The notes beneath the pieces are model-generated. The model had not been told where the DNA came from and searched no databases. It saw nothing but the letters and a program-made list of their open reading frames with translations. Of a stretch of DNA of 36,596 nucleotides, positions 14,583-35,743 are shown in pieces (the stretch's first letter is position 1; the number at the start of each line of letters is the position of its first letter). Source of the stretch: an uncultured Candidatus Saccharibacteria bacterium. GTDB taxonomy: Bacteria > Patescibacteriota > Andersenbacteria > UBA10190. The stretch lies in assembly GCA_964562905.1 (NCBI GenBank), contig CAZLVG010000002.1, positions 1 through 36,596 on the forward strand, written 5' to 3'. The position numbers and the translations under genes are program-made.

Positions 14583-14606
14583 GCTCGCCGATAAATAATA
14601 GCACAC

Positions 14607-14650
14607 TTTTCCACAGATAAGGAACCCTAAAAATTATCCACATATCCACA
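14607..14650. promoter_or_regulatory. DnaA-box cluster upstream of dnaA (second origin/autoregulatory segment)
   Basis: TTTTCCACA at 14607..14615, perfect TTATCCACA at 14634..14642 and the abutting ATATCCACA at 14642..14650, all in the same orientation. Confidence 0.65.
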
Positions 14651-22887: not shown

Positions 22888-24234
22888 TTGACCTTTGGAC
22901 TTATGATTATCCTCTTTCTTTTTCCCGCCCTCGCTCTCTTTGCCTTCCTCTCCTATTATCACCACCAAACAGCCGTTATTCTTTTAGCCGCCCTGCTCCC
23001 GTCTTATCTGCTTCGCTTCTCCGCTTTTAGCCTGCCCACTAACTTTCTTGAATCAACCATTGTTATTGTCGTCCTCGTCGGCCTCATCCAACCAGCCGTC
23101 CGCTCCCGCTGGTCCACCGCTTGGAAAAACCTGTCCCTGCTCTTCACCCTGCTCGTTTTTTTATTTATTCTAGCCGCTTCCGTCTCTACCTACATTTCTC
23201 CCCACCCGTATACCAGCCTCGGCGTTCTCAAAAGCTGGATAATAGCGCCTATACTATTCGCCTGGTTGATTTACAGCAGTGGTATTGCCAGACAAAAAAT
23301 TATAAATGCGCTTTTAATCTCCGGCGTCGCCGTCTCCGTCATCGGCCTATTTCAAATATTCACCCTGGACAGAATAAAAAGTGTCTACGACGTTCCCAAC
23401 TCTCTCGCCCTGTTCCTCGCCCCTCTGTTAGTCTTGGCGCTTTGGCAAAAGCGCTGGCTATCTGTTATCCCCCTCGCTCTGGCTCTTGTTCTCACTCAAT
23501 CCACCTCCGCTCTTGTCGCCGTAACGCTCGCTCTTCTGCTCGGCATAATTCTTTTGGCTAATTTCTCCCGCCGCCGCCGCGCCCTTTACGCCCTCGCCTT
23601 ATTCTTTATCCTTGCCGCCTCCTACTTCTCCTCAACCGGCCGGCTGGCTTACCTGGCCAGTCATCCCAACTCCATCTCTGTGCGCCGGCAGCTGTGGTCG
23701 GTATCCTGGGAGCTGGTTCAAGAGCGTCCCCTCTTAGGTGTCGGCTTGGGCGCTTTTGAGCCGGCTTACCAGCAAAAACTGCATGAGCGTTTTGCCGCCT
23801 ACCACAGCACTCGTCCCGGCGGGGGGCAGGCTGCCCCGTTGCCGGAATTTGTTTTCCGCGATCCCCACAATTGGATACTGTCCTTTTGGCTCAACACTGG
23901 CTTGGCGGGCCTGCTGTCTTTCGCCGGCCTTCACGCTTTTACAGTCTGGCGGCTCGCCCGCCGTCTTCAGTTACCAGTTACCAGTTGCCAGTTGCCAGTT
24001 CCAGCTCTGGCCTTGCTGGCGCTGTTGCTGTTCGGCCTTACCGATACTATTTACTGGAAAAACGATTTGTCCGCCCTGCACTGGCTGCTGCTGGCTTGGT
24101 TGGCCGCTGACTGCGCGCGACGTGAAGCTGGGGCGAACAGTACCGCCCGCCTTACGGACTTAGTAACGGACGCGGGAAAGGCCTATAAGGGGGTTAAGAG
24201 CCGTCGTATTACGTCCTCAGCTTCACCAGATTGA
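22888..24234 (+). CDS. O-antigen ligase/polymerase-like (Wzy_C) membrane protein, second copy
   Basis: 448 aa and polytopic. LVLTQSTSALVAVTLALL and DPHNWILSFWLNTGLAGLLSF are Wzy_C-like. The track start at 22888 is a TTG, and the ATG at 22903 is an alternative. The 3' end overlaps the convergent pilin gene by 26 nt. Confidence 0.72.
   Translation: MTFGLMIILFLFPALALFAFLSYYHHQTAVILLAALLPSYLLRFSAFSLPTNFLESTIVIVVLVGLIQPAVRSRWSTAWKNLSLLFTLLVFLFILAASVSTYISPHPYTSLGVLKSWIIAPILFAWLIYSSGIARQKIINALLISGVAVSVIGLFQIFTLDRIKSVYDVPNSLALFLAPLLVLALWQKRWLSVIPLALALVLTQSTSALVAVTLALLLGIILLANFSRRRRALYALALFFILAASYFSSTGRLAYLASHPNSISVRRQLWSVSWELVQERPLLGVGLGAFEPAYQQKLHERFAAYHSTRPGGGQAAPLPEFVFRDPHNWILSFWLNTGLAGLLSFAGLHAFTVWRLARRLQLPVTSCQLPVPALALLALLLFGLTDTIYWKNDLSALHWLLLAWLAADCARREAGANSTARLTDLVTDAGKAYKGVKSRRITSSASPD
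23968..24002 (+). repeat. Heptanucleotide array, CAGTTAC type, inside coding sequence
   Basis: CAGTTAC CAGTTAC CAGTTGC CAGTTGC CAGTTCC, translated as LQLPVTSCQLPVP. This is a rotation/reverse complement of the GGTAACT unit that flanks the four-helix-bundle genes. Confidence 0.85.
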
Positions 24235-24664
24235 CGGCAATGGCGCGCAGTATGGCCCAGGCCAGCAGCGCCAAGATGATGCCCAATATAGCCGAGCCGA
24301 TCCACAACTTGGCCACGCGCACCCGGTCGCCGCTGCCGCCTGCCGTCATGTATATATAGCCGCCGATAAGAATACTGACCAAGGCGGCAATAATCGTTAG
24401 GACGATTATTGCCGTAACAAGAAGCTGAACCATTTTCCCGATGCCGCCGTCATCAAGTAGTTCACAAATACTTGTTCCTTTTTCCACGTCCAACAAACCG
24501 ACCTCTATTTTACCCCATGCGCAAGATGGAGTTGGAGTAGGGGAAGGAGAAGGAGAAGAAGCCGCCGCCGCGCCTTGAGCTACGGTCGCCAACACGACCA
24601 CCATGGCAGCGATGCTCATCAACCCCCTTTTTATAGATTTACTTGCCACTTTATTCTTTGTCAT
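24209..24664 (-). CDS. Putative type IV secretion system pilin (VirB2/TrbC-like, CPR-type T4SS_pilin)
   Basis: 151 aa with a signal peptide, a PSPSPTPTPS linker and Cys residues. Two hydrophobic helices flank a short loop: LVSILIGGYIYMTAGGSGDRVRVAKLWIGSAILGIILALLAWAIL. This is the pattern I associate with PF18895-type pilins. Confidence 0.65.
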   Translation of the reverse strand: MTKNKVASKSIKRGLMSIAAMVVVLATVAQGAAAASSPSPSPTPTPSCAWGKIEVGLLDVEKGTSICELLDDGGIGKMVQLLVTAIIVLTIIAALVSILIGGYIYMTAGGSGDRVRVAKLWIGSAILGIILALLAWAILRAIAVNLVKLRT

Positions 24665-24698
24665 CAGAGCTTTACTTTCTAACTTTACTACCGCTACA

Positions 24699-25289
24699 TC
24701 AAATCACTACTACAAATACTACTAATAATAATAATACTAATAACAACAAGATAAATGCCGCAAGCGATAGCAGCGCGCCCAAAATACCCCCAGCTATTTT
24801 TTTATAAGCCCTGAAGCCTAATTTTAGCAGCCTCTCCTCTGCTGTTTTCTTCCCTTCCGTTTCTTTTAAGCGCTCTGCCGCTCTAGCGTGCGCCGCCTTT
24901 GCTTGCTTCACGCGTCTTTTCTGCAAGAACGCCACTGGCCGAAATGGCGCTTTCCCCGCCTGTTTTCCGGCCAACTTACCGGCCCGATAAGCCGCTTGCG
25001 TCGCTGCCTTTTTGCCCACCGCCGTAGCGACCTTAGTTCCGCCAAAAGTGGCTACGTGCACCGGCGTAGCCATCACGTCGACTGCCGTTGTGCCGGCGTA
25101 GGTTGCCGCCTGCGCCCCTCGGCCGCCTGCTTGTTTCCCTACTTGCCCCATTCTTTTTTGGACCTGTTTGATCATCTTTAATCTTCTTTCTTGCTGCTTT
25201 TCTTTACGCCGTGTTCGTTTCTCCTCTCTCGCTGCCTGCCTTTCTTCGTCGTCGGTTGGGGCGCCCGTCCCGGAAATGTCGTTTGCCAT
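24699..25289 (-). CDS. Hypothetical tail-anchored protein with a highly basic Lys/Arg/Ala/Gly-rich cytoplasmic region
   Basis: 196 aa with a single C-terminal TM (GGILGALLSLAAFILLLLVLLLLVVFVVVI). It lies 5 nt downstream of the VirB4 gene. No family recognised. Confidence 0.6.
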   Translation of the reverse strand: MANDISGTGAPTDDEERQAAREEKRTRRKEKQQERRLKMIKQVQKRMGQVGKQAGGRGAQAATYAGTTAVDVMATPVHVATFGGTKVATAVGKKAATQAAYRAGKLAGKQAGKAPFRPVAFLQKRRVKQAKAAHARAAERLKETEGKKTAEERLLKLGFRAYKKIAGGILGALLSLAAFILLLLVLLLLVVFVVVI

Positions 25290-25294
25290 ATCCT

Positions 25295-27148
25295 TTATCT
25301 CCCTGTTCCCGCCAGCTCCCGCTTGGCCGCTTCTATGGCCAATACCTGCTGCGGGTCGGAAGTTATCACCTGGTCTTCGGCGTAGCTGGCCACCACTTTA
25401 ATGGCCACGTGCTTTAAGCCGGCGAAGAAAATACCCTCCCCCACGTCGCTTTCCAGCAGCCGGAACTTTTCGTGGTCGGTCAGATAAAACACCTTGGCCA
25501 GCAAGTCAATGGCCGCCGGCGACTGGCGCAGCAGCAGTTGCAGGGAGGAGTTGGTAACAATGGGCTTGCCGTAATCGGAAGCCAGAAAATCCTGAATGTC
25601 CTGCGTGATGGTGGTAACACCCAGGTAATACTTGCGCGCCCGCTTGGCGACGGAAAATAAGAATTTGGCCGATTCCTCGTGCTGCATCAGCACCCAGGCC
25701 TCGTCCACCACCAGAATACGCCTTTTTAACGAGCTCCTGACCTTATTCCAGATAAAGCCCAGCACCACGTACATGGCGATGGGACGCAGTTCCTCCTGCA
25801 TGTCCCGCACGTTGAACACCACCAGCTGCTTGTCAAGATCAATGTTGGTCGGCCGGTTGAACACGCCGGCGTAGGTGCCCTCCACGAAGCGCTCCAGCCG
25901 CAGCGCCACGTTGCTGCCGCCTTCCATGTCGTTGATGATATTATAGAAATCCTGCAGGGTGGGAAATTCCGGCTGTTGCCAGCGCCGGTCCTTGGTTATG
26001 TCTTTCAGCGCGTACGCCTCCCACAGCGCCCGGTCCACCACCGAGTGCTCTTCGGCCGAGAATCCGCCGGCCATAAGAGAGATCAGGCCGGTCAGGCGCG
26101 TGATGTTCTCGCGCAATACGGCTTCCGGGTCGTCGTCCTCGTTTAGCTCCGGCAGGTCAAGGGGATTGATGCGATGGTCGGAAGCGGTGGCTATGCGCAG
26201 GTAAGCGCCGCCTACGGAATCGGATAAGTACTTGTATTCCTGCTCCGGGTCTATCACGATCACTTCCGTGCCGAACATCAGCTGCCGCAAAATCTCCAAC
26301 TTCGCCAAATAGCTTTTACCGGCGCCGCTTTTGGCGAAAATGGTCATGTTAGCGTTCTCCAAGCTGAAGCGGTCAAACAGAATCAGGCTGTTATTGTGCA
26401 GGTTGATGCCGTATAAAATACCGTTGTTGCTGGTCAGGTCCGAGCTGACAAAAGGAAAAGCCGTGGAAAGAGAGGAGGAGCTCATATTAGAGGATCGCAC
26501 CAGCTTGTCATGCCCCAAGGGCAGGGTGGAAAGAAACCCCTCCTTGGCTTGAAACAGAGTCGGCTTCATGTAAACCAGCTTTCCTTCCAGCAGTACTTCT
26601 AATTGCGCCACGATCTCATCCAGCTCCTCTTTGGTGTCGCCGTACAAGGTGAGATACAGGCTGTACTGGAAAAACTTTTCCGTTCCCTGCACCAGCCTGT
26701 CCCGCAGCTGTTCAATGTCGCGGTAAGCCGTTTCCAGTTGCGGGTCCCGCGTCTTGCCTTTTTCCATGCGCATGGAGATGGAAGCCGCCACCTGCGTTAC
26801 CTGCTTTTTCATTTGTTTCAGCACGGTGGCCGACTCCTGGGGGTAGATGAACATACCCATGTCAAACTCTATGTCGTAATTGATAATAGGGGACAGCCAA
26901 TTGGTCTCCAGGTAGCGGGGGTAGGTTACCACGAACAGCGTGGTGGCGTACTTGCCGTCAATCTCCACGTGGCTGGGACTTATTTCCGTCCCCGCCGGGG
27001 AAAGCACGTCCTGAAGGCGCGCCACCCCCTCTTCAAATTGCCGCTCCTTAGCTCTCTCTTCCGCCGTAGCCTTCTCCTTTTTTCGGCCGGGCCTGCCTTC
27101 CTTCTTCTCCCGCCCTATGGTAAAGCCCATTATGTTAACCATAGCCAA
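25295..27148 (-). CDS. virB4: VirB4/TrbE/TraC-family type IV secretion ATPase
   Basis: Walker A FAKSGAGKSYLAK, Walker B RRILVVDEAW, and upstream ..IDGKYATTLFVVTYPRYLETNWLSPII.. typical of the VirB4 middle region. The track start at 27148 is a TTG, and the ATG at 27142 is more likely. Confidence 0.9.
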   Translation of the reverse strand: MAMVNIMGFTIGREKKEGRPGRKKEKATAEERAKERQFEEGVARLQDVLSPAGTEISPSHVEIDGKYATTLFVVTYPRYLETNWLSPIINYDIEFDMGMFIYPQESATVLKQMKKQVTQVAASISMRMEKGKTRDPQLETAYRDIEQLRDRLVQGTEKFFQYSLYLTLYGDTKEELDEIVAQLEVLLEGKLVYMKPTLFQAKEGFLSTLPLGHDKLVRSSNMSSSSLSTAFPFVSSDLTSNNGILYGINLHNNSLILFDRFSLENANMTIFAKSGAGKSYLAKLEILRQLMFGTEVIVIDPEQEYKYLSDSVGGAYLRIATASDHRINPLDLPELNEDDDPEAVLRENITRLTGLISLMAGGFSAEEHSVVDRALWEAYALKDITKDRRWQQPEFPTLQDFYNIINDMEGGSNVALRLERFVEGTYAGVFNRPTNIDLDKQLVVFNVRDMQEELRPIAMYVVLGFIWNKVRSSLKRRILVVDEAWVLMQHEESAKFLFSVAKRARKYYLGVTTITQDIQDFLASDYGKPIVTNSSLQLLLRQSPAAIDLLAKVFYLTDHEKFRLLESDVGEGIFFAGLKHVAIKVVASYAEDQVITSDPQQVLAIEAAKRELAGTGR

Positions 27149-27149
27149 A

Positions 27150-27881
27150 CTACTTACCGGCCCACGGCTTTTTATCCGCGTGATTAGCTAACAGCTTATC
27201 CGGCTCCGCCTCCGACAGCTTAAGCTGAGCCACGTTGCTTAAAGGCTGGTTGCGCGAGGTGGTGGGGTTCAGCATGTTATAAAAAAGCTCCAGCATCTCC
27301 TGCGTCTGCAGCGGCACCAGCCGCAAGCCTACGCCCCGCAGCCCCACCGCTACTTGCTCCACCCGCTGCAGCAGTTGGGCTTTGTAGTGCGTGAAATCCT
27401 CTTCAGAAATCTTGGCGTCCCCTTTGGCTACAGTCTGCAATCCTTTTTGCAGTCGCTGAAAAAAGTTATCCTGCCGGCTTTGCACCACGGAAAAAGGCAC
27501 GGTCACCAGAAAAGTTTTAGCCATTATGTCGTTGCCTTTGACCAGCTCCGACACAAAATTAATGTATTCTTCCATCTGCAGGCGCAACAGCTCATTGTCC
27601 TGCTTTTCCTGGCGGGAACGCAGCTCCTCCAAGTAAGGAGTTATATCCAGCCGCCGCGACATAACTGTTATGTGCACGGGAAAGTCCAGCGAGTTCAAAA
27701 AATCCTGAAAAGCTAGGATGATGGCCGTCTGCTCTTCTTCCGATTTAAGGGCAAAATTCAAGGAGGACACAATAAGTGTGGATCTTAAGGTGCCGTCTTT
27801 TAGCACGGCGATACCGTCGCGCACTTCTTTTAGCGGCACCAACTGCTGGGCCGGTTTGCCTTTTTTACTCGGACTTCTCAT
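27150..27881 (-). CDS. Hypothetical protein resembling the N-terminal domain of Gram-positive-type VirB4 (possible split VirB4)
   Basis: 243 aa. LVPLKEVRDGIAVLKDGTLRSTLIVSSLNFALKSEEEQTAIILAFQDFLNSLDFPVHITVMSRRLDI follows the pattern I recall for PrgJ/TcpF-type N-termini. Its stop (27152..27150) is 1 nt from the VirB4 TTG and in a different frame. Confidence 0.6.
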   Translation of the reverse strand: MRSPSKKGKPAQQLVPLKEVRDGIAVLKDGTLRSTLIVSSLNFALKSEEEQTAIILAFQDFLNSLDFPVHITVMSRRLDITPYLEELRSRQEKQDNELLRLQMEEYINFVSELVKGNDIMAKTFLVTVPFSVVQSRQDNFFQRLQKGLQTVAKGDAKISEEDFTHYKAQLLQRVEQVAVGLRGVGLRLVPLQTQEMLELFYNMLNPTTSRNQPLSNVAQLKLSEAEPDKLLANHADKKPWAGK

Positions 27882-27896
27882 TACGCTATCAGTGTA

Positions 27897-28394
27897 CTAC
27901 GACGCCGGCGATTGGTCAGGGGTAATATTTGTTGGCTCTCTTTCCGCGGCGGTTGCCTTGCTCTTTTCAGTCATGGGGTCGGCCGCGTCCTGCTCAATAA
28001 CATTACCTTGGGTGTTGAGGGTCTGGGCTATAAAGTCCAGGGTTGAGCGGGCAGCCGCCCCCTCGGCGGAGAATTCCTCGTACTCCTCGCCGCTTATTCT
28101 AATGTCAGCGGCGTTCGCCTGCCGCCGCCAGATGTACAGCCGGTCTCCCGTGAAATATTTCATCAAATTAGCCAGCAACTCGGCGAAGTTTTGCCCCCGC
28201 CAGCGAACGTGGGCAAACAAAGCGGCCACGCCCACCACCGGTATGGCTAGGGCCAGGAACAGGCCCAGGTCGGCCAGGGCGTAAACGGGAAGCAGCAGCA
28301 GCGCGGCCACTACGTAGTACAAAAACTGCTTCAAGGTCAGCGGGCCGATAATCCGGTCCTGGATGTCAACGAATTGGGGGACTTGATAGCGCAT
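27897..28394 (-). CDS. PrgI-family (VirB3-like) membrane protein
   Basis: The N-terminus MRYQVPQFVDIQDRIIGPLTLKQFLYYVVAALLLLP is followed by a second TM, as in PrgI/VirB3-like proteins found next to VirB4. Confidence 0.7.
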   Translation of the reverse strand: MRYQVPQFVDIQDRIIGPLTLKQFLYYVVAALLLLPVYALADLGLFLALAIPVVGVAALFAHVRWRGQNFAELLANLMKYFTGDRLYIWRRQANAADIRISGEEYEEFSAEGAAARSTLDFIAQTLNTQGNVIEQDAADPMTEKSKATAAEREPTNITPDQSPAS

Positions 28395-28395
28395 G

Positions 28396-28448
28396 GGTAA
28401 GTAACTAGTAACTAGTAACTAGTAACTGGTAATTAGTAACTGGTAATT
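28396..28448 (+). repeat. Heptanucleotide tandem array (AGTAACT/GGTAATT), left flank of four-helix-bundle gene copy 1
   Basis: GGTAA GTAACT AGTAACT AGTAACT AGTAACT GGTAATT AGTAACT GGTAATT. It fills the entire gap between the PrgI-like start (28394) and the 4HB stop (28449). Confidence 0.9.
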
Positions 28449-28896: not shown

Positions 28897-28900
28897 GATT
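28866..28900 (+). repeat. Heptanucleotide tandem array (ACTAGTT type, inverted relative to the left flank), right flank of copy 1
   Basis: CGTAATT ACTAGTT GCTAGTT ACTAGTT ACTGATT. ACTAGTT is a rotation of AGTTACT, the reverse complement of AGTAACT. Confidence 0.9.
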
Positions 28901-28901
28901 A

Positions 28902-29399: not shown

Positions 29400-29408
29400 A
29401 CTTAAGTG

Positions 29409-31412
29409 CTAGACGTTACCTCTTGCTTTTTCAATGGTGTTGTGCACCTCATTAACCAACCGGGCTTTCGCTTCATTGGAAAGATGGGGGTTAGCTTCTA
29501 TGTTCACCATAAGGTCCGTTTGCCCCTGGTCGCCCAGTTGTCTCATTAAGTCAGCATTTTTAGACAGACCGGTCACCTGGCTGACTTTTTGCGAGTTAGC
29601 CGCGATAGCCAACGCACCGGTATTGCCGATAGCTTCAGTAACATGCCGCTTGCTTAACTGGACTGCTGATACAGCAGGCTGGTTAAGGTTATTCACGTTG
29701 CCCCAGCTGCCGGGCATGGTTCCCACCCTGGCTGCCGCTTGCGCTTCTCGCCTGTCGGCAGGCGGGGCGCCTCCTGTGACCCGGCGGCCTAAGCGCTCGC
29801 CCCAGCTGCGCGGCTGTCCTTTAAGCGGCTTGCCCTCCTTGTCCCGCTTCACCCCCCTGGCCCAGGTGGGCAGGTGGGCGGCTACGCCGCCTTTCACCGC
29901 GCGGCCGAAGTCGCGCGCCTGCCGGCCTACTCCCCTTACGCCCGCTCTCGCGCCCGTGCCCACGTACGCCGCCTTGGCCGCGCCTCTACCGGCTCTCTTC
30001 GCTCCCCGGTAGGCCATTCCCCGCGCCCGCCGCCCGGCGCCGGCGGCTAAGCTAATAGCCGTCGCTGATCCGATTATCCCCGCGTATCGCCCGGCCATCG
30101 CCGCTACCACTAGCGCCACCGCGTATATTGATGCTTCCATCAACGCCTCAAAAGATTTTTTGAAGGGGAAATTTTTGCCGCCAAATAGGTCGCCCGCGTT
30201 AATTAAATAGTCAATATTAATTGCCCCTAGAATGATAAACAATACCACCGGGCCGTAGATTACGTAACGCATAAAAGTCTGCCACCACCTGCTGGCCAGC
30301 GCTCCCAGCCCGGGAAAGGCTACTGCCAGATAAGCTATCGGTGAAATAATCAACAGTAAAAGAAGCATGATGTATCGCATCAACAAGCTGAACACAACCA
30401 CTGCCAGAGCCAGAGCCATTATCCAAGCCAATATGGCGTTCACCAACGCGGCCAGTACCTCGTCCCATCCCCTGACCGGATCAATGAGACTCCACCAGAT
30501 ACCTGTCTGACCCGCCCCTCTCGAAAACGCCTCCTCCAGCGTTTTATATCTGGCTCCCGTCTGGGCTATCGTCGCTAATTTACCTTCTACCTGGTCAATA
30601 CTTATCCCGAACGGCCCTGGTAAGACAGCCATAATGACCCGCGAGACATCAATAATTAAACCGGCTATTACCAGACTGAAATTCACCAACAGCGCCGCTA
30701 TTAGCAGCCGTGGCAGTAACCTCCGCACTCCTCCTCCGACGTTCAATCTTAAGGTTGTTAACAGTGCTATGACCACCAAGGCCAGTAAAAACCCCATATT
30801 TATAAAACCCAATACTACGGGCCATGCGAGCTTCACTATGAGATGTTCAGTAAACGTGCCCAAGGTCAGAAGCGGGACTATACTGGCTGTAAAGAAGGAA
30901 ATTAACCAAGAAGCCAGCCAGGCCAAAGTTCTAAATAACGCTTTTAAAGTAGCGACGATAGCGTCGTTTTGTATGGCTAGTTGTCTCACACCAGGTATGA
31001 AATATGTTCCCCAAGACGCGAACCATTCTCCCCACGATGGCGCCGCGCGCGCCGGCGTTATCAGGCCGGCCACGCGGCCGTTGTCGGTTACATTGTCTCT
31101 TCTGACAACTGCCGGCGGACAAAAAAGAAGCGACTCGCCCGCGGCATCGGCCGGTATTACCGCCTGCCAGTCCAGGGAACTGTAGGCTTGTAAGGCCTTG
31201 GCGTCATCCAGTCTGACCGGCTCGCAGCCAGTCTGAACCAGATAGGCCTTTTCTTCCCGCACCGGCACCGGCAGCGGCCTTGCTGCCGCCCGGGCTGGCG
31301 GAGCTGGCAGCAGGCCCGCGCCCAGTATCAGGCTAGCTAGCCAGCCAAGCAGTATTTTTTTTGGCAGTCTTGCGGGCATAAATATACCGTTTAATAACAG
31401 GTAAAGCCGCAC
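29409..31412 (-). CDS. VirB6/TrbL-like polytopic membrane protein with a basic Gly/Ala/Arg-rich C-terminal tail
   Basis: 667 aa with a signal/anchor, a roughly 130-aa exo-domain and at least 6 hydrophobic helices. The tail reads AGAGRRARGMAYRGAKRAGRGAAKAAYVGTGARAGVRGVGRQARDFGRAVKGG. The architecture and its position next to VirB3/B4 resemble TrbL/VirB6. The ATG at 31379 (MPARLPKKILLGW) is an alternative start that avoids a 22-nt overlap. Confidence 0.55.
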   Translation of the reverse strand: MRLYLLLNGIFMPARLPKKILLGWLASLILGAGLLPAPPARAAARPLPVPVREEKAYLVQTGCEPVRLDDAKALQAYSSLDWQAVIPADAAGESLLFCPPAVVRRDNVTDNGRVAGLITPARAAPSWGEWFASWGTYFIPGVRQLAIQNDAIVATLKALFRTLAWLASWLISFFTASIVPLLTLGTFTEHLIVKLAWPVVLGFINMGFLLALVVIALLTTLRLNVGGGVRRLLPRLLIAALLVNFSLVIAGLIIDVSRVIMAVLPGPFGISIDQVEGKLATIAQTGARYKTLEEAFSRGAGQTGIWWSLIDPVRGWDEVLAALVNAILAWIMALALAVVVFSLLMRYIMLLLLLIISPIAYLAVAFPGLGALASRWWQTFMRYVIYGPVVLFIILGAINIDYLINAGDLFGGKNFPFKKSFEALMEASIYAVALVVAAMAGRYAGIIGSATAISLAAGAGRRARGMAYRGAKRAGRGAAKAAYVGTGARAGVRGVGRQARDFGRAVKGGVAAHLPTWARGVKRDKEGKPLKGQPRSWGERLGRRVTGGAPPADRREAQAAARVGTMPGSWGNVNNLNQPAVSAVQLSKRHVTEAIGNTGALAIAANSQKVSQVTGLSKNADLMRQLGDQGQTDLMVNIEANPHLSNEAKARLVNEVHNTIEKARGNV

Positions 31413-33025
31413 TGGGGCACGCCCGGCGTCTGGCGGAAATTGCCCGCCGTCAGCACCCTTAAAGCCTGCACCGCTCCCTGCTCTAAGTGCCCCGCTATCA
31501 GGTTGGCCGAGGGGGAGGTCGGTTCTTTCGGCTCGTCATAGCGCGGGTCAAGGCCGAATAAGTTTAAGCCTGTCCCCGCCACCGTTGACTGCAGGCCGCT
31601 TACGCTGCCCGCCGAGCAGTTTTCATAATATTCCGGTGTACCTGGCCTACACAGTCCGGGTGGGTCGGTATAGCCCTCCTCGCTCATTGAACAGTAACAG
31701 CTGGGCCCGGCCGCTTTTTCCCTTTCCACCAACTGCTTGCTGCCCGGTAGGTCAATGCCTTTTAAGGCGCTGGCCCGCTGGCTGGTGTCCAGTAGGCCCA
31801 ATATTTGCGGTAAGCTGTACACATCCGCTGTCCGTACTGCTACCGGGTTCTTTACTACCACCGACAACTCTTCCGGATTTACATAGCTCGCCGGTGTCCC
31901 TGCTTGCGCGGGCGAGTCCAGTTTGCTTGATTTGAGCACAACGTCAGCCAACAGCCCCTGCTCCTCCATCAGTTCCTGCTGCGCGGCGATGCGATCATGG
32001 GCCGCTGCACCGATCCGCGTCGCTGCCTGTTCGGCGAATAAAACTTGACGCGCTGTCTCCTCTTGGCACGATATTCCCCGCTCTTCTCCTTCGCAGTTAA
32101 CTTCAACCTTGCCATCCCTGCCGCGTACTAGATTTTTGTATGGATATTCTATGTCCTGATCATCCGGTGGTCCAAGTATAGTGCTGGTAGCGTTATCCAG
32201 CAACCTCGCTAATAATTCTGAATGGAACGCAGGGTCATCACTGTTTCTTACATATTCCCGCCACGCGGCTATGGCGGGAGAGTAAGCCATGGGCAGGCGC
32301 TCTCCCCCTTCCTTGTTGTATCTTCGTATACGCTCTTGTGTGTCTTCCGCTGTGCCTGACATAAAGGCTGCTAGCGTGCCATCCTTCACGGGCTTATTTT
32401 TCCAGTCTAGTGGATCCATGACGATCGCTCCTCGGCGCTTGTCCTCTATCGTCTTCAACTCGCTGGAGCTCGAACTGGTGCCAGTGTCGGTAGCGGTTAG
32501 GTTATACTCGCAATTCTCCAGTCCCAGCCCGTAATCACACAACGCGCGCAGCAGCTCGCTGGTTGAGTTGCGCCGCCCGTGCTCCGCCCCGTACTCGCGC
32601 ACCAGCTGGTCGCTGTAAAGGTCGGTGCCTTCCAGGGTGATGGCGCGCGTTAAGAGATCGGCTATGCCGGGGTCGGTCGGGGAAACTGCCTCGTCTGTAC
32701 CAACTTTGGTAGTTTCTGTTAAAGGAAATTTCTCCTCCTCAAACGGCGGCTCTATCCCTTCCTTTTCACCGGCTTTGGCCCGCTCTTTTAGCAGCTCTTC
32801 CCGCGTGTACCGCGTTTCCACGTAGTCGGCCTGGTCCAGCGCGGCCAGCACGTTGTAAAACAGCTGCTGCTGCGCGATGGCGGTGTAGAACACCGCGTGC
32901 GGGTCCGCCCGCGCCGCCCGGGGATAAAACGCGATGAGAGACACAACGCATACGACAAACAAAACACAAGCGGTATTTGTGATTTGTGTTTTGCTTAGTT
33001 TATGCTTTATTGGTCTTTTATGCAT
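31391..33025 (-). CDS. Hypothetical large exported protein (N-terminal anchor, Cys-containing, no recognised domain)
   Basis: 544 aa. The N-terminal TM is ACVLFVVCVVSLIAFY. Acidic and helical segments follow, with paired Cys (CDYGLGLENC, NCEGEERGISC, CYCS..C..C, CGFTC). Confidence 0.6.
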   Translation of the reverse strand: MHKRPIKHKLSKTQITNTACVLFVVCVVSLIAFYPRAARADPHAVFYTAIAQQQLFYNVLAALDQADYVETRYTREELLKERAKAGEKEGIEPPFEEEKFPLTETTKVGTDEAVSPTDPGIADLLTRAITLEGTDLYSDQLVREYGAEHGRRNSTSELLRALCDYGLGLENCEYNLTATDTGTSSSSSELKTIEDKRRGAIVMDPLDWKNKPVKDGTLAAFMSGTAEDTQERIRRYNKEGGERLPMAYSPAIAAWREYVRNSDDPAFHSELLARLLDNATSTILGPPDDQDIEYPYKNLVRGRDGKVEVNCEGEERGISCQEETARQVLFAEQAATRIGAAAHDRIAAQQELMEEQGLLADVVLKSSKLDSPAQAGTPASYVNPEELSVVVKNPVAVRTADVYSLPQILGLLDTSQRASALKGIDLPGSKQLVEREKAAGPSCYCSMSEEGYTDPPGLCRPGTPEYYENCSAGSVSGLQSTVAGTGLNLFGLDPRYDEPKEPTSPSANLIAGHLEQGAVQALRVLTAGNFRQTPGVPQCGFTCY

Positions 33026-33028
33026 ATC

Positions 33029-33049
33029 TAAAACTGGTAACTGGTAATT
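33029..33049 (+). repeat. Short heptanucleotide array (TAAAACT GGTAACT GGTAATT), left flank of 4HB copy 2
   Basis: It lies between the upstream gene start (33025) and the 4HB stop (33050). Confidence 0.8.
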
Positions 33050-33466
33050 TCATACTTGACGCTCAATAGCTCTAATTATGCCGTTAATCAGCCGAGCCGC
33101 CTGATGCGCCTCATCGCCTAATCTTTTACATTGATCGCGCTCTACAAAACTTAAGTCCTTAGCGAGCAACAAAAAATTTTGCACCTCTGCCGCCGACCCG
33201 CGAGCTTGATGATAAAACCTAACCTTATCTTTATAATGATATCTGGCAAAACCCTCGGCAATGTTAGCTGTAACAGAACTGGCCGCCCGGCGTAATTGGC
33301 TGGTAATCCCATATAATTCCTCTCGCGGAAACTGCCTAGTAGCCACATAGACATTAAGAACTAATTCATGACCTTTCTTCCACGCATCAAGATCATAAAA
33401 GTTAATAACTGTCTTACTACCAGGTTGAGTCTTGGCTCTCGTCGTTGTCGTCGTAGTCGTGGTCAT
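33050..33466 (-). CDS. Four-helix-bundle protein (23S rRNA intervening-sequence protein / Avd-like family), copy 2
   Basis: The 138-aa product is identical to that of 28449..28865. Confidence 0.9.
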   Translation of the reverse strand: MTTTTTTTTRAKTQPGSKTVINFYDLDAWKKGHELVLNVYVATRQFPREELYGITSQLRRAASSVTANIAEGFARYHYKDKVRFYHQARGSAAEVQNFLLLAKDLSFVERDQCKRLGDEAHQAARLINGIIRAIERQV

Positions 33467-33497
33467 CGTAATTACTAGTTGCTAGTTACCAGTTACT
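33467..33497 (+). repeat. Heptanucleotide array (CGTAATT ACTAGTT GCTAGTT ACCAGTT ACT), right flank of copy 2
   Basis: The TAA stop of the next gene (33495..33493 on the minus strand) is formed inside this array. Confidence 0.85.
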
Positions 33498-34392
33498 TAA
33501 TATCATACATCTCCTCCAGCGCCCGTATCCGCTCCGCCAGCTCCTGAAACACCGCCCCCAAATCCTCAATGTTTCGCGCCGCCACCAGCGCGCCCACGAA
33601 ATCCTGGTCCACGCGGGACAGCAGCTCGGCGTTGTCCCGCAGGGACCGCGAGGCGGCTACCAGTTTTATGTGCGTGTCTTTCACTTCCGCCGGCGCCGGC
33701 ACGGCCTTCAGTATCCCAACATTATCCGACAGCGCTTTTACCACCTGGTTCATGGGCTGCTTATCGCGCGCGTTGACCTGGGCCCGGAAGGCCGCTGCTA
33801 CGTCCGAGCTGGTAACTTCTTTTAACTGGTCGTTGTGGGCGGACGATATTTGGTCCAGATAAGCGGACACGGCTTCCTTGCCCTCTCCCGCGGCGACTTT
33901 GATGTCGTCTTCAGTTAAGGCGGGCATCAGCGCGCCCCGGTTTTTCTCCACGAACGCTTCCAGTTTGGCCTGGTCCAGTATGTCCTCCTGCGGTACATCC
34001 TCGGGCAAAGTGGCCAGGTAGCGCTGGGTGAAAGTTTTCTGCTGGGTCACCTGGCTGCCCGTGGCCGGCTTGACGGCGTCGTCCGGCCCCGGTATGCGCG
34101 GGTCCCGCCCGGCTATTATTTCGTCCAAGTCGCTCATGCCGTCGCCGTCGGTATCGGGGTTGTTAGGGTCCGTCTGGTAATACACCACCTCAAACATGTC
34201 GGCTACGCCGTCCTCGTCGCTATCCTGCTGGCGGTCGCCGGCGTACTCCCGCGCCGCCTCCTGCTCCGTTTTTTCCTCGGCTTCTTCCCTGAACAGCAGC
34301 GTCTTGCCGCCCCAGTACAAGCCGAACAAAATCGCCAGCACCACCGCCGTGATGGCGGCTACTTGCAGGCCCAGCCGGTTAATTTCCTTCAT
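33493..34392 (-). CDS. N-terminally anchored protein with thrombospondin-type-3-like Ca-binding Asp repeats and a helical C-terminal domain
   Basis: 299 aa. The TM is AAITAVVLAILFGLYWGGK. DSDEDGVADMFE and DPNNPDTDGDGMSDLDE are TSP3-like DxDxDG repeats. Confidence 0.7.
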   Translation of the reverse strand: MKEINRLGLQVAAITAVVLAILFGLYWGGKTLLFREEAEEKTEQEAAREYAGDRQQDSDEDGVADMFEVVYYQTDPNNPDTDGDGMSDLDEIIAGRDPRIPGPDDAVKPATGSQVTQQKTFTQRYLATLPEDVPQEDILDQAKLEAFVEKNRGALMPALTEDDIKVAAGEGKEAVSAYLDQISSAHNDQLKEVTSSDVAAAFRAQVNARDKQPMNQVVKALSDNVGILKAVPAPAEVKDTHIKLVAASRSLRDNAELLSRVDQDFVGALVAARNIEDLGAVFQELAERIRALEEMYDIK

Positions 34393-34435
34393 GAAGGATG
34401 CTAGAAACTAGTATCCCCATTATATGACATTTCCC

Positions 34436-34858
34436 CTAAAACTTCACCTCTGTTTCCGGCAAAAGTCTTCTTACCTTTTCCACTTCCTCCGCCGGCAACG
34501 GGTTGCCTCGTAAATCCAACATCTCCAATTCCCGCAAAGCAACTATTTCCTCTGGGACTTCTCTTATATTATTACCACTAACGTCCAACCAAGTAAGACT
34601 GGTTACAAAACTGACTCCTCTGGTCAAACTTGGCATCCTGCGGCCGCTTAAATCAAGCCCGCAAACCTGCTTGCCGGCTTTTATAAAGTCCTCCTGCGCC
34701 GCTTTCAAGTCTGTGTAAATCTCTTCGCACACTAAAGCTCCCTCCTCGCTCTCCTCTGCTCCTGGTAAAAACTGCCTGCCCTCGTACCAGACTAGCAGCA
34801 GGAAGGCGACCAGGAAAACCGCCGCCGCCAGGAATAACAGGCTCCTTTTCGCCGTCAT
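34436..34858 (-). CDS. Small N-terminally anchored leucine-rich-repeat protein
   Basis: 140 aa with a TM, an acidic linker, a Cys-capped LRR start (VCEEIYTDL...VCGLDLSGRRMPSL) and LRR units (LTWLDVSGNNIREVP, LEMLDLRGNPLP). It is a paralog of the next gene. Confidence 0.8.
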   Translation of the reverse strand: MTAKRSLLFLAAAVFLVAFLLLVWYEGRQFLPGAEESEEGALVCEEIYTDLKAAQEDFIKAGKQVCGLDLSGRRMPSLTRGVSFVTSLTWLDVSGNNIREVPEEIVALRELEMLDLRGNPLPAEEVEKVRRLLPETEVKF

Positions 34859-34859
34859 G

Positions 34860-35726
34860 CTAAAAATTCACCGTCGCGTTCGGCAAGAGTTTCCTTATTC
34901 TGTCCACTTCCTCCGCCGGCAGGGGATTGCCCCGTAACTCTAAACGCTCCAGTTCCGCTAATGTTGACGGCAGTAGGCTGCGGATTTGAGACAAAGGCAA
35001 CGATGACAATTGGTTGTTTCTTAGATCCAACACCACTAACTTTTTGGCGTAAATAATCTGGTCCGGGACCAGATTTATTTGGTTTCCCCGAACTATTAGT
35101 TTCCGCAGGTTAGGCGCACCTATGTTTTGGTGTACCTCCGTTAACTGGTTTCCTTCTAGATTTAATACCTCCAAATTTTTCATACCACCCACCCAATAGG
35201 GAAATTTAGTTATCTGATTGTAACTAAAATCAAGCTCCCTTAATTCCATCAGCCAGCCTAGTTGTGACGGCATTGTTGCCATTTGGTTTCCGCTGGCGTC
35301 CAGCTTCACCAGACTTTTCCTCAATTGCCCTATATCTCCGCTGATCTCCGTAAGCTGATTATCGCTGATGTCTAAAATAGCCAGATTTTTAAAGGATGCA
35401 ATTTCTTTCCCTAGCTTGGTCATATTTCCATTGCTAAGACTAAGCTCGCATACTTTCTCTGCGCTTTGCAGAGCTTTCTCTAGGTCTGTGTAGACCTGTT
35501 CCGGCGGGCACTCCAGCCTCACTTCAACTCGGGCCTCTTCTTCCTTCTTTTCCTCTTCCGGAGCCACCAGTAGTTTCTTCCCGCCCCAGTACAACCCGAA
35601 CAGCACTAATAAAACTACGGTGGTGACGGCAGCCACTTTAACTCCCACCTTAACGGCTGACTCCCCCCCGCCGTCTGGCGGCGTTGGCGGCGTGGCGGTA
35701 GGCTCGTCCATAGGATTATGATACAT
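34860..35726 (-). CDS. N-terminally anchored leucine-rich-repeat protein (about 8 LRR units)
   Basis: 288 aa. The TM is VAAVTTVVLLVLFGLYWGGK. Repeated LxxLxLxxNxLxxLP units are present (LAILDISDNQLTEISGDI, LVKLDASGNQMATMPSQL, LRELDFSYNQITKFP, LEVLNLEGNQLTEV and others). Confidence 0.85.
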   Translation of the reverse strand: MYHNPMDEPTATPPTPPDGGGESAVKVGVKVAAVTTVVLLVLFGLYWGGKKLLVAPEEEKKEEEARVEVRLECPPEQVYTDLEKALQSAEKVCELSLSNGNMTKLGKEIASFKNLAILDISDNQLTEISGDIGQLRKSLVKLDASGNQMATMPSQLGWLMELRELDFSYNQITKFPYWVGGMKNLEVLNLEGNQLTEVHQNIGAPNLRKLIVRGNQINLVPDQIIYAKKLVVLDLRNNQLSSLPLSQIRSLLPSTLAELERLELRGNPLPAEEVDRIRKLLPNATVNF

Positions 35727-35743
35727 TATAACGCGCTGAATGT

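What the first reader, a model, noticed from the sequence alone, without database searches (positions are those of the whole stretch)
24209..35726. Minimal VirB2/B3/B4/B6-type secretion or pilus locus without coupling protein, relaxase or VirB7-11, bundled with anchored LRR and Ca-repeat proteins
Seen: twelve co-oriented minus-strand genes (including the two 4HB inserts) with gaps of 1-43 nt or small overlaps. They comprise a pilin-like protein with two hydrophobic helices (24209..24664), a VirB4 ATPase with Walker A/B motifs (25295..27148) and a PrgI/VirB3-like protein (27897..28394). There is also a VirB6/TrbL-like polytopic protein (29409..31412). Six proteins match no family I recognise, although three of them carry known repeat types (LRR, TSP3-like). 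Within the 12 kb I saw no VirD4-like second ATPase, relaxase, VirB11, VirB8/9/10 or peptidoglycan hydrolase. Established: conjugative T4SSs need a coupling protein and a relaxase, and reduced VirB4/VirB6/pilin sets have been noted in CPR/Saccharibacteria genomes without a defined function. Inference: this is not a standard conjugation module. It may be a pilus/adhesion, DNA-uptake or host-contact apparatus whose LRR and TSP3-repeat proteins are cargo or tip adhesins. The cluster is transcribed towards the oriC-like region at about 13 kb, which is head-on to the rightward fork and unlike the adjacent + strand genes. That fits an accessory or acquired block, but the evidence is weak because the left arm also has head-on genes.
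Basis: partly seen in the sequence, partly recalled or inferred. Interest (0 to 1): 0.7.

Follow-up and report, generated by a model that had tools for sequence, protein, structure and literature searches.

The report
Patescibacteria-type type IV secretion locus
This is the chromosomal, origin-proximal type IV secretion/pilus gene cluster already described for ultra-small Patescibacteria (here an Andersenbacteria genome): a real and conserved machine, but an ordinary member of a published kind whose function is still unknown.

Summary
The twelve minus-strand genes exist as described.

No coupling protein or relaxase lies in the window. None lies within 10 kb upstream in the two closest long contigs.

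The block is not recently acquired. Gene order, including the neighbouring housekeeping genes, is collinear across Andersenbacteria genomes. TrsD-VirB4 sits next to dnaA/dnaN in about 30 of the related loci. GC content matches the rest of the window.

This system, its lack of a relaxase and its position near dnaA were published in 2025. Its essentiality in a Saccharibacterium was shown in 2023.

What is specific to this lineage:
- two orphan proteins with no detectable fold relatives;
- a tail-anchored basic protein;
- LRR and TSP3 proteins that share one N-terminal membrane anchor.

The two identical four-helix-bundle genes are low-GC cassettes. Each sits in a hairpin built from inverted heptamer arrays. 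Related four-helix-bundle genes in metagenomes often show the same architecture.

The parts
24209..24664 (-). VirB2-like T4SS pilin: signal/TM segment, a Cys-containing loop, then two hydrophobic helices.
   Evidence: PF18895 E 2.6e-4, below the Pfam cut-off. All 7 orthologues match PF18895, best E 3.8e-7. Conserved motif GGYIYMTAGGSxDRV...AILGI. TM scan.
24699..25289 (-). Tail-anchored protein rich in Ala/Lys/Gly/Arg ('KA196'). A basic cytoplasmic domain is followed by a C-terminal TM helix at residues 178-196. Lineage-specific, function unknown.
   Evidence: No family found. Orthologues sit in the same slot in L002, L003, L007 and L049. Composition and TM scan.
25295..27148 (-). VirB4 ATPase lacking its N-terminal domain (matches model positions 177-733). 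The exact start codon is uncertain: TTG at 27148, or ATG a few codons downstream.
   Evidence: NF045971 370 bits, above the 325-bit cut-off. PF19044, PF12846 and PF11130 hits. Walker A 272-279 and Walker B 478-483. PDB 4AG5, E 5.6e-48.
27150..27881 (-). TrsD-like protein, equivalent to the VirB4 N-terminal domain encoded as a separate polypeptide.
   Evidence: NF045971 positions 2-138, E 1.5e-9; NF041427 TrsD, E 5e-5. PF11130 positions 20-180. PF26593 TraC-like. Adjacent to VirB4 in all full-length related loci.
27897..28394 (-). PrgI/VirB3-like protein with two TM helices.
   Evidence: PF12666 31.8 bits, above the gathering score of 27. TM helices at 19-37 and 43-61.
28395..28901 (-). Four-helix-bundle (23S_rRNA_IVP) cassette 1. 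The gene is 28449-28865. It lies between inverted (AGTAACT)n heptamer arrays.
   Evidence: PF05635 E 1e-34. Inverted repeats I1-I3. The RNA fold pairs the two arrays into a stem of about 27 bp that encloses the ORF, z -3.85. GC 0.424 against 0.551 for the rest of the cluster. Absent at this site in L002, L005 and L049; present in L055, L056 and L065.
28902..29399 (-). Orphan soluble all-alpha protein ('unk165'). It carries a conserved C-terminal NVLNLKE...KPPAPPPMP tail.
   Evidence: Only 26 homologues and no Pfam family. AF2 pLDDT 81.5, core above 90. No fold match in PDB or BFVD. Conserved slot between VirB6 and PrgI.
29409..31412 (-). Extended VirB6/TrbL-like polytopic membrane protein: signal segment, at least 6 TM helices, and a hydrophilic tail of about 220 residues. 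The true start may be the ATG at 31379 rather than the GTG at 31412.
   Evidence: 6 of 11 orthologues match PF04610, best E 4e-7. TM scan. The window protein alone has no Pfam hit. A profile search of PDB sequences found nothing.
31391..33025 (-). Orphan bitopic protein ('unk544'). An N-terminal TM helix is followed by the invariant motif ADPHxxFYTxxxQxQLFxNxLAALxQxD and a large ectodomain with invariant Cys163 and Cys172.
   Evidence: 52 homologues and no Pfam family. Only 145 representatives among 1.84 billion proteins. AF2 pLDDT 70.9. No PDB fold match, best E 0.31. Conserved slot between TSP3 and VirB6.
33026..33492 (-). Four-helix-bundle cassette 2. The gene is 33050-33466. It is a recent duplicate of cassette 1.
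   Evidence: 453 nt are 100% identical to 28436-28888 (D2). GC 0.437. No 4HB gene was detected in L002, L003, L005 or L049, and none at this junction in any related locus.
33493..34392 (-). Membrane-anchored protein with TSP3-type Ca-binding repeats and a helical C-terminal domain.
   Evidence: PF18884 E 6.7e-9. N-terminal TM at 7-25. Orthologues lie in the same position in L002-L012 and L045.
34436..34858 (-). Short membrane-anchored LRR protein.
   Evidence: LRR_8 E 5.5e-7. TM at 6-24. Orthologues in L002/L052 and L049.
34860..35726 (-). Membrane-anchored LRR protein. It shares the LFGLYWGGK anchor with the TSP3 protein.
   Evidence: LRR_8 E 2e-21. Anchor alignment. DNA repeat D7.
35744..36596 (-). 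3' part of a large surface-protein gene with SpaA_2 (prealbumin-fold) repeats and (SP)n linkers. The reading frame is open to the window end.
   Evidence: PF19403 E 3.9e-23. In-frame reading without a stop up to base 36595. Repeats D1, D5 and D6. Proteins of 1237 and 1367 aa occupy this slot in L049 and L052.

Best explanation
This is the resident, vertically inherited type IV secretion system of a Candidatus Andersenbacteria (Patescibacteria/Parcubacteria) chromosome. It is of the Patescibacteria clade, which derives from monoderm (MPF-FATA) conjugation machinery.

Shown by homology:
- a VirB4 ATPase whose N-terminal domain is a separate TrsD-like protein;
- a two-TM PrgI/VirB3 protein;
- an extended polytopic VirB6;
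- a signal-peptide-bearing VirB2-like pilin.

Inferred mechanism. The TrsD+VirB4 ATPase docks on PrgI and VirB6 in the single membrane. It drives extraction and polymerisation of the pilin into a short pilus or conduit through the wall.

The lineage-specific proteins are inferred to stand in for parts that are not recognisable here. The bitopic 544-aa orphan, the soluble 165-aa orphan and the tail-anchored basic protein would replace the VirB8-like, adaptor and wall-spanning parts.

The N-terminally anchored LRR, TSP3 and SpaA-repeat proteins encoded at the head of the same gene string are inferred to provide contact with the host cell.

The machine most likely serves the epibiotic lifestyle, not conjugation. 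That means attachment to, and contact-dependent exchange of macromolecules with, a host cell. Direction and cargo are not known.

The two four-helix-bundle genes are later low-GC cassette insertions. They are not ancestral parts of the machine.
For: Component assignments.

Taxon: VirB4 is 75-87% identical to Andersenbacteria-type MAGs, and almost all 47 related loci come from Patescibacteria-type MAGs.

Conserved order. The order is SpaA - LRR - TSP3 - unk544 - VirB6 - unk165 - PrgI - TrsD - VirB4 - KA196 - pilin, convergent with Wzy/GT/flippase/jag/yidC and then dnaA. It is seen in L002/L052, L003, L005, L007/L054, L008/L050 and L049.

No relaxase or coupling protein in the window. None within 10 kb upstream in L050 or L052.

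Native composition: GC 0.551 against 0.552.

All ORFs are intact and tightly spaced.

Literature: the Patescibacteria T4SS clade, TrsD, PrgI, VirB6, VirB2-like pilins, scarcity of relaxases and proximity to dnaA are described in PMC12102498. T4SS genes are essential for epibiotic growth of S. epibionticum while comEC is dispensable (PMC10633639; PMC12857230).

The LRR and TSP3 proteins share an N-terminal TM anchor.
Against: No function has been shown for any Patescibacteria T4SS; a review calls its role 'completely unknown' (PMC11665869).

The rest of this genome could not be read, because the source contig is only 38,085 nt. A distant VirD4-like gene is therefore possible. The 2025 survey found such genes far from virB4 in many Patescibacteria.

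The roles given to the orphan proteins rest only on conserved position and topology. Neither model matches any known fold.

The window's own VirB6 and pilin proteins score below family cut-offs. They are assigned through their orthologues.

No VirB1-like hydrolase or VirB8-like protein was recognised in the window.

Andersenbacteria have no cultivated member, so an epibiotic lifestyle is itself an inference.
Confidence: 0.62

Rival explanations
1. It is a DNA or nucleotide import machine, like H. pylori ComB or the archaeal Ced system. The VirB4/VirB6/pilin core would pull host or environmental DNA inwards to feed a cell that cannot make nucleotides.
For: No relaxase or coupling protein is needed for import, which fits their absence here. 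This role is proposed in the literature for Saccharibacteria (PMC11665869). A membrane-anchored, highly basic cytoplasmic protein sits next to VirB4 and could bind nucleic acid. There is a weak generic VirB4-level similarity to CedB, E 2e-14.
Against: The CedB score is 53 bits against a 700-bit cut-off, so this is not a Ced orthologue. No ComB- or Ced-specific components were found. Nothing in the locus is a recognisable DNA-binding or nuclease domain. Direction of transport cannot be read from sequence.
Confidence: 0.17
2. It is a functional conjugation or DNA-export system. Its coupling protein and relaxase are encoded elsewhere in the genome.
For: The machinery descends from monoderm conjugation systems. 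VirD4-like genes occur far from virB4 in many Patescibacteria genomes (PMC12102498). The rest of this genome was not available.
Against: Relaxases were found in only 103 Patescibacteria genomes of the survey, and rarely near virB4. The locus sits in a conserved housekeeping neighbourhood with native GC and no integrase or oriT-like features. In S. epibionticum the distant VirD4-like gene is not essential, whereas the T4SS genes are.
Confidence: 0.08
3. It is only a pilus/adhesion organelle. VirB4 assembles a VirB2 pilus decorated or accompanied by LRR/TSP3/SpaA adhesins, and no substrate passes through it.
For: A pilin gene and several anchored adhesin-type proteins lie in one gene string. No coupling protein is present to recruit substrates.
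Against: VirB6, generally regarded as part of the membrane translocon, is retained and conserved. Patescibacteria already use type IV pili for attachment and motility. The LRR/TSP3 proteins carry membrane anchors, not pilus-tip features.
Confidence: 0.13

Closest known systems
Patescibacteria-clade T4SS as surveyed by Quinonero-Coronel et al. 2025 (PMC12102498), with the Southlakia epibionticum ML1 cluster SEML1_0006-0019 as the experimentally studied example (Wang et al. 2023, PMC10633639)
   Same: It has a VirB4 of monoderm type with a separate TrsD, plus PrgI/VirB3, VirB6 and a VirB2-like pilin. No relaxase or coupling protein lies in the cluster. It is chromosomal and next to dnaA/dnaN/yidC/rnpA. 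Andersenbacteria genomes with VirB4 are already in that survey's table.
   Different: There is one pilin gene here, not an array of six. No lysozyme or peptidase gene lies downstream of virB4; a LysM-Peptidase_M23 gene sits at the far upstream border in relatives. The lineage-specific orphans (544 aa, 165 aa, tail-anchored basic protein) and the anchored LRR/TSP3/SpaA proteins are not mentioned in the paper's main text. They were also not found in the stored part of its supplement. That paper reports finding no PrgB-like adhesins.
Monoderm conjugative T4SSs of the MPF-FATA class (pGO1 TrsC/TrsD/TrsE, CTn2 CD1108-CD1110, pCF10 PrgH/PrgI/PrgJ)
   Same: The VirB4 passes the CD1110-family cut-off. 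There is a TrsD-like protein upstream of VirB4, as in pGO1. PrgI-family and VirB6-type membrane proteins are present.
   Different: No relaxase, coupling protein, recognisable VirB8-like protein or VirB1-type hydrolase was found, and no PrgB-type adhesin. It has a VirB2-like pilin, which MPF-FATA systems lack. It is not on a mobile element.
Mycoplasma ICE transfer module (Mbov_0395 pilin-like, Mbov_0396 membrane protein, Mbov_0397 VirB4)
   Same: A trio of pilin-like protein, polytopic membrane protein and VirB4 in a wall-poor monoderm. There are weak matches to all three NCBIfam models.
   Different: The scores are far below the cut-offs: 14 vs 40, 13 vs 70 and 290 vs 590 bits. The mycoplasma module is part of a self-transmissible ICE with a coupling protein.
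T4SSs that work without a coupling protein (H. pylori ComB DNA uptake; Bordetella Ptl; Brucella VirB)
   Same: They are precedents for a VirB4-driven machine that does something other than conjugation without VirD4.
   Different: Those are diderm systems with VirB7-10 core complexes. No specific homology was found beyond VirB4, VirB6 and VirB2.

Membership tests
Patescibacteria-clade T4SS (PMC12102498) | Signature VirB4 ATPase related to the monoderm MPF-FATA class | tested here: met
   NF045971 (CD1110 family) 370 bits, above the 325-bit cut-off. Firmicute VirB4 4AG5 E 5.6e-48, against TrwK 1.5e-11. Walker A and B motifs intact.
Patescibacteria-clade T4SS (PMC12102498) | VirB4 falls in the monophyletic Patescibacteria clade | tested here: inconclusive
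   No tree was built. Nearest neighbours are consistent: almost all 47 related loci (87-30% identity) come from Patescibacteria-type MAGs, some with evidently wrong record titles.
Patescibacteria-clade T4SS (PMC12102498) | TrsD-like protein (VirB4 N-domain homologue) encoded next to virB4 | tested here: met
   27150-27881, 1 nt from virB4. The same adjacency holds in all full-length related loci.
Patescibacteria-clade T4SS (PMC12102498) | VirB3/PrgI-like and VirB6-like membrane components near virB4 | tested here: met
   PrgI PF12666 scores above the gathering score. VirB6 is assigned through orthologues, 6 of 11 matching PF04610, and through polytopic topology.
Patescibacteria-clade T4SS (PMC12102498) | VirB2-like pilin gene near virB4 | tested here: met
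   24209-24664. PF18895 is matched by 7 of 7 orthologues, best E 3.8e-7; the window protein itself is below the cut-off.
Patescibacteria-clade T4SS (PMC12102498) | No relaxase and no coupling protein associated with the cluster | tested here: met
   None in the 36.6 kb window. None in the 10 kb upstream in L050 or L052. The whole genome was not available.
Patescibacteria-clade T4SS (PMC12102498) | Chromosomal location close to dnaA/dnaN | tested here: met
   dnaA is at 13167-14606 and dnaN at 11807-12919, about 10 kb from the cluster. DnaA-box clusters are present. The same neighbourhood is seen in relatives.
Patescibacteria-clade T4SS (PMC12102498) | Required for epibiotic growth | not testable with these tools
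   Shown only for S. epibionticum by Tn-seq (PMC10633639).
Conjugative T4SS / integrative conjugative element | Relaxase with oriT | tested here: not met
   No relaxase family hit in the window or in the upstream 10 kb of relatives. oriT cannot be recognised without a relaxase family.
Conjugative T4SS / integrative conjugative element | VirD4/TcpA-type coupling ATPase | tested here: not met
   VirB4 is the only T4SS-type ATPase. TraD/TcpF-type models give only marginal hits on VirB4 itself.
Conjugative T4SS / integrative conjugative element | Carried on a mobile element (integrase, foreign composition, variable location) | tested here: not met
   GC is equal to the genome background. Neighbourhood is fixed across genomes. 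No integrase in the window.
Ced / ComB DNA-import systems | CedB/ComB-specific orthology | tested here: not met
   CedB model 53 bits against a 700-bit cut-off; CedD 15.6 against 600.
23S rRNA intervening sequence (for the two four-helix-bundle inserts) | Element lies inside a 23S rRNA gene | tested here: not met
   No rRNA in the window. None in 20 related cassette loci. The inserts lie between protein genes.
23S rRNA intervening sequence (for the two four-helix-bundle inserts) | PF05635 gene enclosed by a long stem formed by its flanks | tested here: met
   PF05635 E 1e-34. A flank-to-flank stem of about 27 bp, z -3.85. Inverted repeats are present in 24 of 73 related cassettes against 1 of 322 control ORFs.

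The most novel reading that the evidence does not exclude
Two linked readings are not excluded.

(a) The four-helix-bundle genes may be an undescribed kind of small intergenic cassette. Each PF05635 ORF sits in the loop of a hairpin built from inverted arrays of a 7-nt unit. The unit changes between lineages while the two arms stay complementary. The cassettes insert co-directionally into tight operons. Among Andersenbacteria-type and neighbouring Paceibacteria loci they have landed repeatedly, with unrelated 4HB sequences (17-41% identity), at the junctions flanking prgI. They could cut or insulate the polycistronic T4SS transcript, for example by RNase III cleavage of the stem.

(b) The Andersenbacteria T4SS may have replaced the missing VirB8, hydrolase, adhesin and coupling functions with the orphan proteins and the shared-anchor LRR/TSP3 family. 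That would make it a distinct structural variant of the Patescibacteria machine.
Probability: 0.2. Interest if true: 0.55.

Novelty: new member of a known kind. Interest (0 to 1): 0.33.

Why it matters
The Patescibacteria T4SS is one of the few machines known to be essential for the epibiotic life of these very abundant, mostly uncultured bacteria. What it transports is an open question.

This window adds nothing to the basic picture, which was published in 2023-2025.

It does give a well-resolved Andersenbacteria example. It shows which genes travel with the core: two orphan proteins, a tail-anchored basic protein, and LRR, TSP3 and SpaA-repeat surface proteins. These are concrete candidates for the missing stalk, adaptor and adhesin parts. 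They could guide structural or interaction studies.

The hairpin-flanked four-helix-bundle cassettes are a separate small curiosity. They may deserve a survey of their own.

Tried and rejected
- Exact-sequence look-ups of the LRR and 544-aa proteins found no record. The TrsD look-up found only a 1.6 kb contig. The source contig is 38,085 nt. Nothing beyond the window could be read directly, so relatives were used instead.
- Profile searches of the VirB6 and pilin alignments against PDB sequences found nothing meaningful.
- Foldseek of the 544-aa model against PDB (best E 0.31) gave no match. Neither did Foldseek of the 165-aa model against PDB and BFVD. I therefore rejected the idea that either is a recognisable VirB8 (NTF2-like) or VirB1 (lysozyme/peptidase) analogue.
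- The tail-anchored basic protein and its orthologues match no NCBIfam or Pfam family. The CD1108 hit at E 0.036 is not reproduced in orthologues.
- Promoter and terminator pattern counts are not above shuffled expectation. Rfam finds nothing in the window.
- GC skew shows no switch at the dnaA region, so it neither supports nor refutes the head-on argument. DnaA boxes do cluster there.
- For the cassette stems I compared G-U-type with A-C-type mismatches, to tell an RNA structure from a DNA one. The counts were 24 against 20, which is no asymmetry and therefore inconclusive.
- Literature searches for PF05635 / 'four helix bundle protein' / 'S23 ribosomal protein' with repeats found no description of such cassettes in the held library. 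One search call failed on syntax.
- I considered a split or frameshifted VirB4 pseudogene. I rejected it because TrsD and VirB4 are separate intact genes in every full-length related locus.

Full report
**What is in the sequence.**
The window is the replication-origin region of a roughly 55% GC chromosome. It carries ruvB, yebC, ruvC, a PKD/7TM protein, an ATP-grasp protein, a class A PBP, recF, dnaN, dnaA, rnpA, yidD, yidC and jag. A flippase, three glycosyltransferases and two Wzy-type polymerases follow.
- From 24209 to the window end every gene is on the minus strand.
- The gaps between them run from -22 to 54 nt.
- DnaA boxes are enriched (17 found, 4.6 expected). They cluster at 12920-13028 and 14607-14650.
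- The cluster therefore does read towards a plausible origin. GC skew gives no signal either way.

**Core components.**
- **VirB4 (25295-27148).** It passes NCBIfam's curated cut-off for the CD1110 family of monoderm VirB4 ATPases (370 vs 325 bits).
  - It has intact Walker A and B motifs.
  - It is much closer to the solved Firmicute VirB4 (4AG5, E 5.6e-48) than to proteobacterial TrwK (1.5e-11).
  - It matches only model positions 177-733.
- **TrsD (27150-27881).** The missing N-terminal domain of VirB4 is this separate 243-aa protein (CD1110 positions 2-138, E 1.5e-9; TrsD family E 5e-5; PF26593 TraC-like).
- **PrgI (27897-28394).** It is above Pfam's gathering score and has two TM helices.
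- **Pilin and VirB6.** The window's own copies are individually weak. I aligned orthologues taken from related loci.
  - All 7 pilin orthologues match PF18895, best E 3.8e-7.
  - Six of 11 VirB6 orthologues match TrbL/VirB6 PF04610, best E 4e-7.
  - Topology agrees for both.

**Relatives and synteny.**
A scan of one genome per species with VirB4 returned 47 loci. The closest are 75-87% identical.
- They include MAGs named Candidatus Andersenbacteria (Patescibacteria, Parcubacteria group).
- tBLASTn and ORF mapping, plus four annotated contigs, show one conserved order.
- That order is: large SpaA/Calx-beta surface protein, LRR protein(s), TSP3 protein, 544-aa orphan, VirB6, 165-aa orphan, PrgI, TrsD, VirB4, tail-anchored basic protein, pilin.
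- It is convergent with Wzy-Wzy-GT-GT-GT-flippase-jag-yidC, followed by dnaA.
- More distant loci (Colwellbacteria, Woesebacteria, Microgenomates) keep TrsD-VirB4 within a few kb of dnaA/dnaN.
- GC of the cluster without the two inserts is 0.551, against 0.552 for the rest of the window.
- This is a vertically inherited chromosomal block, not a recent acquisition.

**What lies beyond the window.**
The source contig is only 38,085 nt.
- In the closest relative with a long contig (L052, VirB4 87% identical) the same-strand string starts with ksgA. It continues with a TSP3 protein, a 496-aa unknown, a 1367-aa surface protein and the LRR proteins. A divergent LysM-Peptidase_M23 gene lies at the border.
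- The 576 kb Andersenbacteria contig (L050) shows LysM-M23, a UvrD-type helicase, ksgA, two unknowns and three TSP3-like paralogues.
- No VirD4-like ATPase or relaxase appears in either.
- A distant coupling protein cannot be excluded. The 2025 survey found VirD4 homologues far from virB4 in many Patescibacteria.

**Comparison with what is known.**
The system is already described.
- Quinonero-Coronel et al. 2025 (PMC12102498) define a Patescibacteria VirB4 clade related to MPF-FATA.
  - TrsD is its most frequent partner, together with PrgI/VirB3, VirB6 and VirB2-like pilins.
  - Relaxases are almost absent and virB4 lies near dnaA/dnaN/rnpA/ksgA.
  - Their genome table includes Andersenbacteria with VirB4.
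- Wang et al. 2023 (PMC10633639) showed by Tn-seq that the T4SS genes of Southlakia epibionticum are essential for epibiotic growth. They noted the pilins and the lack of a coupling protein and relaxase.
- Reviews state that the role is unknown. Effector delivery and nucleic-acid import are the ideas on the table.
- The finding is thus a correct recognition of a known kind.

**Lineage-specific parts.**
- **544-aa protein.**
  - It has one N-terminal TM helix, an invariant juxtamembrane motif (ADPHxxFYTxxxQxQLFxNxLAALxQxD) and invariant cysteines.
  - It has only 145 representatives among 1.84 billion proteins.
  - Its AlphaFold model (pLDDT 70.9) matches nothing in the PDB.
  - In sister lineages only the N-terminal motif of about 60 residues is retained, on a shorter protein.
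- **165-aa protein.** It is soluble and all-alpha (pLDDT above 90 over the core), with a conserved proline-rich C-terminal tail. It has no fold relatives.
- **196-aa protein downstream of VirB4.** It is rich in Ala/Lys/Gly/Arg, with a C-terminal anchor and no family.
- **LRR and TSP3 proteins.** They share a nearly identical N-terminal anchor (...VLxxLFGLYWGG(K/R)xLL) although their ectodomains are unrelated. They are anchored surface proteins, which makes a cargo role less likely.
- The main text of the 2025 paper does not mention these families. It reports finding no PrgB-like adhesins.

**Mechanism.**
- Shown: the parts list, their topology, their conservation, and the local absence of DNA-processing genes.
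- Inferred:
  - TrsD+VirB4, tethered by PrgI and VirB6, powers assembly of a VirB2 pilus or conduit across a monoderm envelope.
  - The orphans supply the unrecognised scaffold parts.
  - The anchored LRR/TSP3/SpaA proteins mediate contact.
  - The whole serves host association rather than conjugation.
- I put about 0.6 on this general reading.
- The remainder is split between an import machine, an adhesion-only pilus, and true conjugation with distant partners.

**The two four-helix-bundle inserts.**
- They are 453 nt of identical sequence (28436-28888 and 33037-33489), with GC 0.42-0.44 against 0.55.
- Each PF05635 gene is flanked by (AGTAACT)n and its complement.
- The transcript folds with these arrays paired into a stem of about 27 bp that encloses the ORF (z -3.85).
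- The closest relatives L002, L005 and L049 lack the inserts.
- Other relatives carry unrelated 4HB genes (17-41% identity) at junctions next to prgI. L003 and L010 have long inverted repeats of different sequence, and L007 has short inverted (AAAAGTC)n arrays.
- A metagenome scan with the 4HB protein gave 80 loci.
  - 24 of 73 testable genes have a strong flank-to-flank inverted repeat, against 1 of 322 control ORFs.
  - The flanks are period-7 arrays whose unit differs by lineage.
  - The genes are mostly co-oriented with close neighbours.
  - None of 20 loci tested holds rRNA.
  - Three loci show the same unk165|4HB|PrgI arrangement.
- A test for RNA-specific wobble asymmetry was inconclusive.
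- I found no description of this in the held literature.
- I record it as a side observation, not as part of the T4SS.

**Verdict.**
The 'acquired block' idea is contradicted, and one 'unknown' is TrsD.
- This is a new member of a known kind, with modest interest.

Noticed in passing
window 28395-28901 and 33026-33492: Two copies of a PF05635 (23S_rRNA_IVP / four-helix-bundle) gene share 453 nt of 100% identical sequence. Their GC is 0.42-0.44 against 0.55 for the surroundings. Each lies between inverted (AGTAACT)n heptamer arrays. For the first copy the fold pairs the arrays into a stem of about 27 bp around the ORF (z -3.85); the second copy's arrays are shorter. They separate gene pairs that overlap in the closest relative.
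   Followed up: partly
L055-L134 (metagenome loci), L003:7554-8062, L007:8592-8999, L010:8615-9072: The hairpin architecture is general. In 24 of 73 related 4HB genes the 5' and 3' flanks are strongly complementary, against 1 of 322 control ORFs. The flanks are period-7 tandem arrays whose unit differs by lineage: AGTAATC, AGCCATC, AGCAATT, TAGCAAC, AAGACTC, GTGAATN. The genes are mostly co-oriented with neighbours at a median gap of about 43 nt. None of the 20 loci tested contains rRNA.
   Followed up: partly
window, L003, L007, L010, L045, L055, L056, L065: Within 919 kb of VirB4-centred loci only 7 4HB genes occur. Six are inside the T4SS operon and five of those are directly next to prgI, on either side. 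Yet the 4HB proteins are only 17-41% identical to each other. This suggests repeated independent insertion at those junctions.
   Followed up: partly
window 34294-34328 and 35568-35602; L049, L052, L054, L003, L005: The LRR and TSP3 proteins have unrelated ectodomains. They nevertheless share a near-identical N-terminal transmembrane anchor (...VVLxxLFGLYWGG(K/R)xLL), also visible as a DNA repeat. It looks like a shared anchoring or docking module.
   Followed up: partly
window 24209-36596 relative to 12920-14650; loci L015-L041: The TrsD-VirB4 core reads towards the dnaA/oriC region in Paceibacteria-type loci, where it lies on the yidC side. It also reads towards it in Microgenomates/Woesebacteria-type loci, where it lies on the dnaN side. 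The head-on orientation next to the origin therefore looks conserved on both sides of it.
   Followed up: partly
window 35744-36596: The listed 258-aa ORF is really the 3' end of a larger gene that runs off the window. It encodes repeated SpaA_2 prealbumin-fold domains joined by long (Ser-Pro)n linkers; the 12/18/30-nt DNA repeat family lies at 35811-36008. Relatives have proteins of 1237-1367 aa in this slot.
   Followed up: partly
window 24209-24234: The pilin gene and the convergent Wzy-type gene (22888-24234) overlap by 26 nt at their 3' ends. No intergenic terminator region is left between the two converging transcription units.
   Followed up: no
L008/L050 8759-9902 (L008 coordinates): In the 576 kb Andersenbacteria contig the PrgI-TrsD pair is inverted relative to VirB4, while the rest of the cluster keeps its order. 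That genome also has three tandem TSP3-like paralogues.
   Followed up: no
window 4631-7496: A PKD-domain protein fused to a 7TM_transglut domain is followed by a gene for an ATP-grasp (ATPgrasp_ST) protein with a C-terminal aspartyl/zinc-protease-like domain. This membrane-linked peptide-ligase pairing is unrelated to the T4SS.
   Followed up: no
window 3476-4000: The YebC/TACO1-family gene is short, at 174 aa. It matches only positions 2-55 of the 160-position second/third-domain model, so the protein may be truncated or divergent at its C-terminus.
   Followed up: no
P0166-P0185; L009:2656-3315, L010:2983-3714, L012:2756-3430, L045:3120-3734: About 20 short proteins (roughly 160-290 aa) share only the TM helix and the conserved juxtamembrane motif of about 60 residues from the 544-aa orphan. 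In sister lineages such a short protein occupies the same slot. In L009, L010 and L012 it is followed by a separate unrelated protein of 450-520 aa.
   Followed up: no
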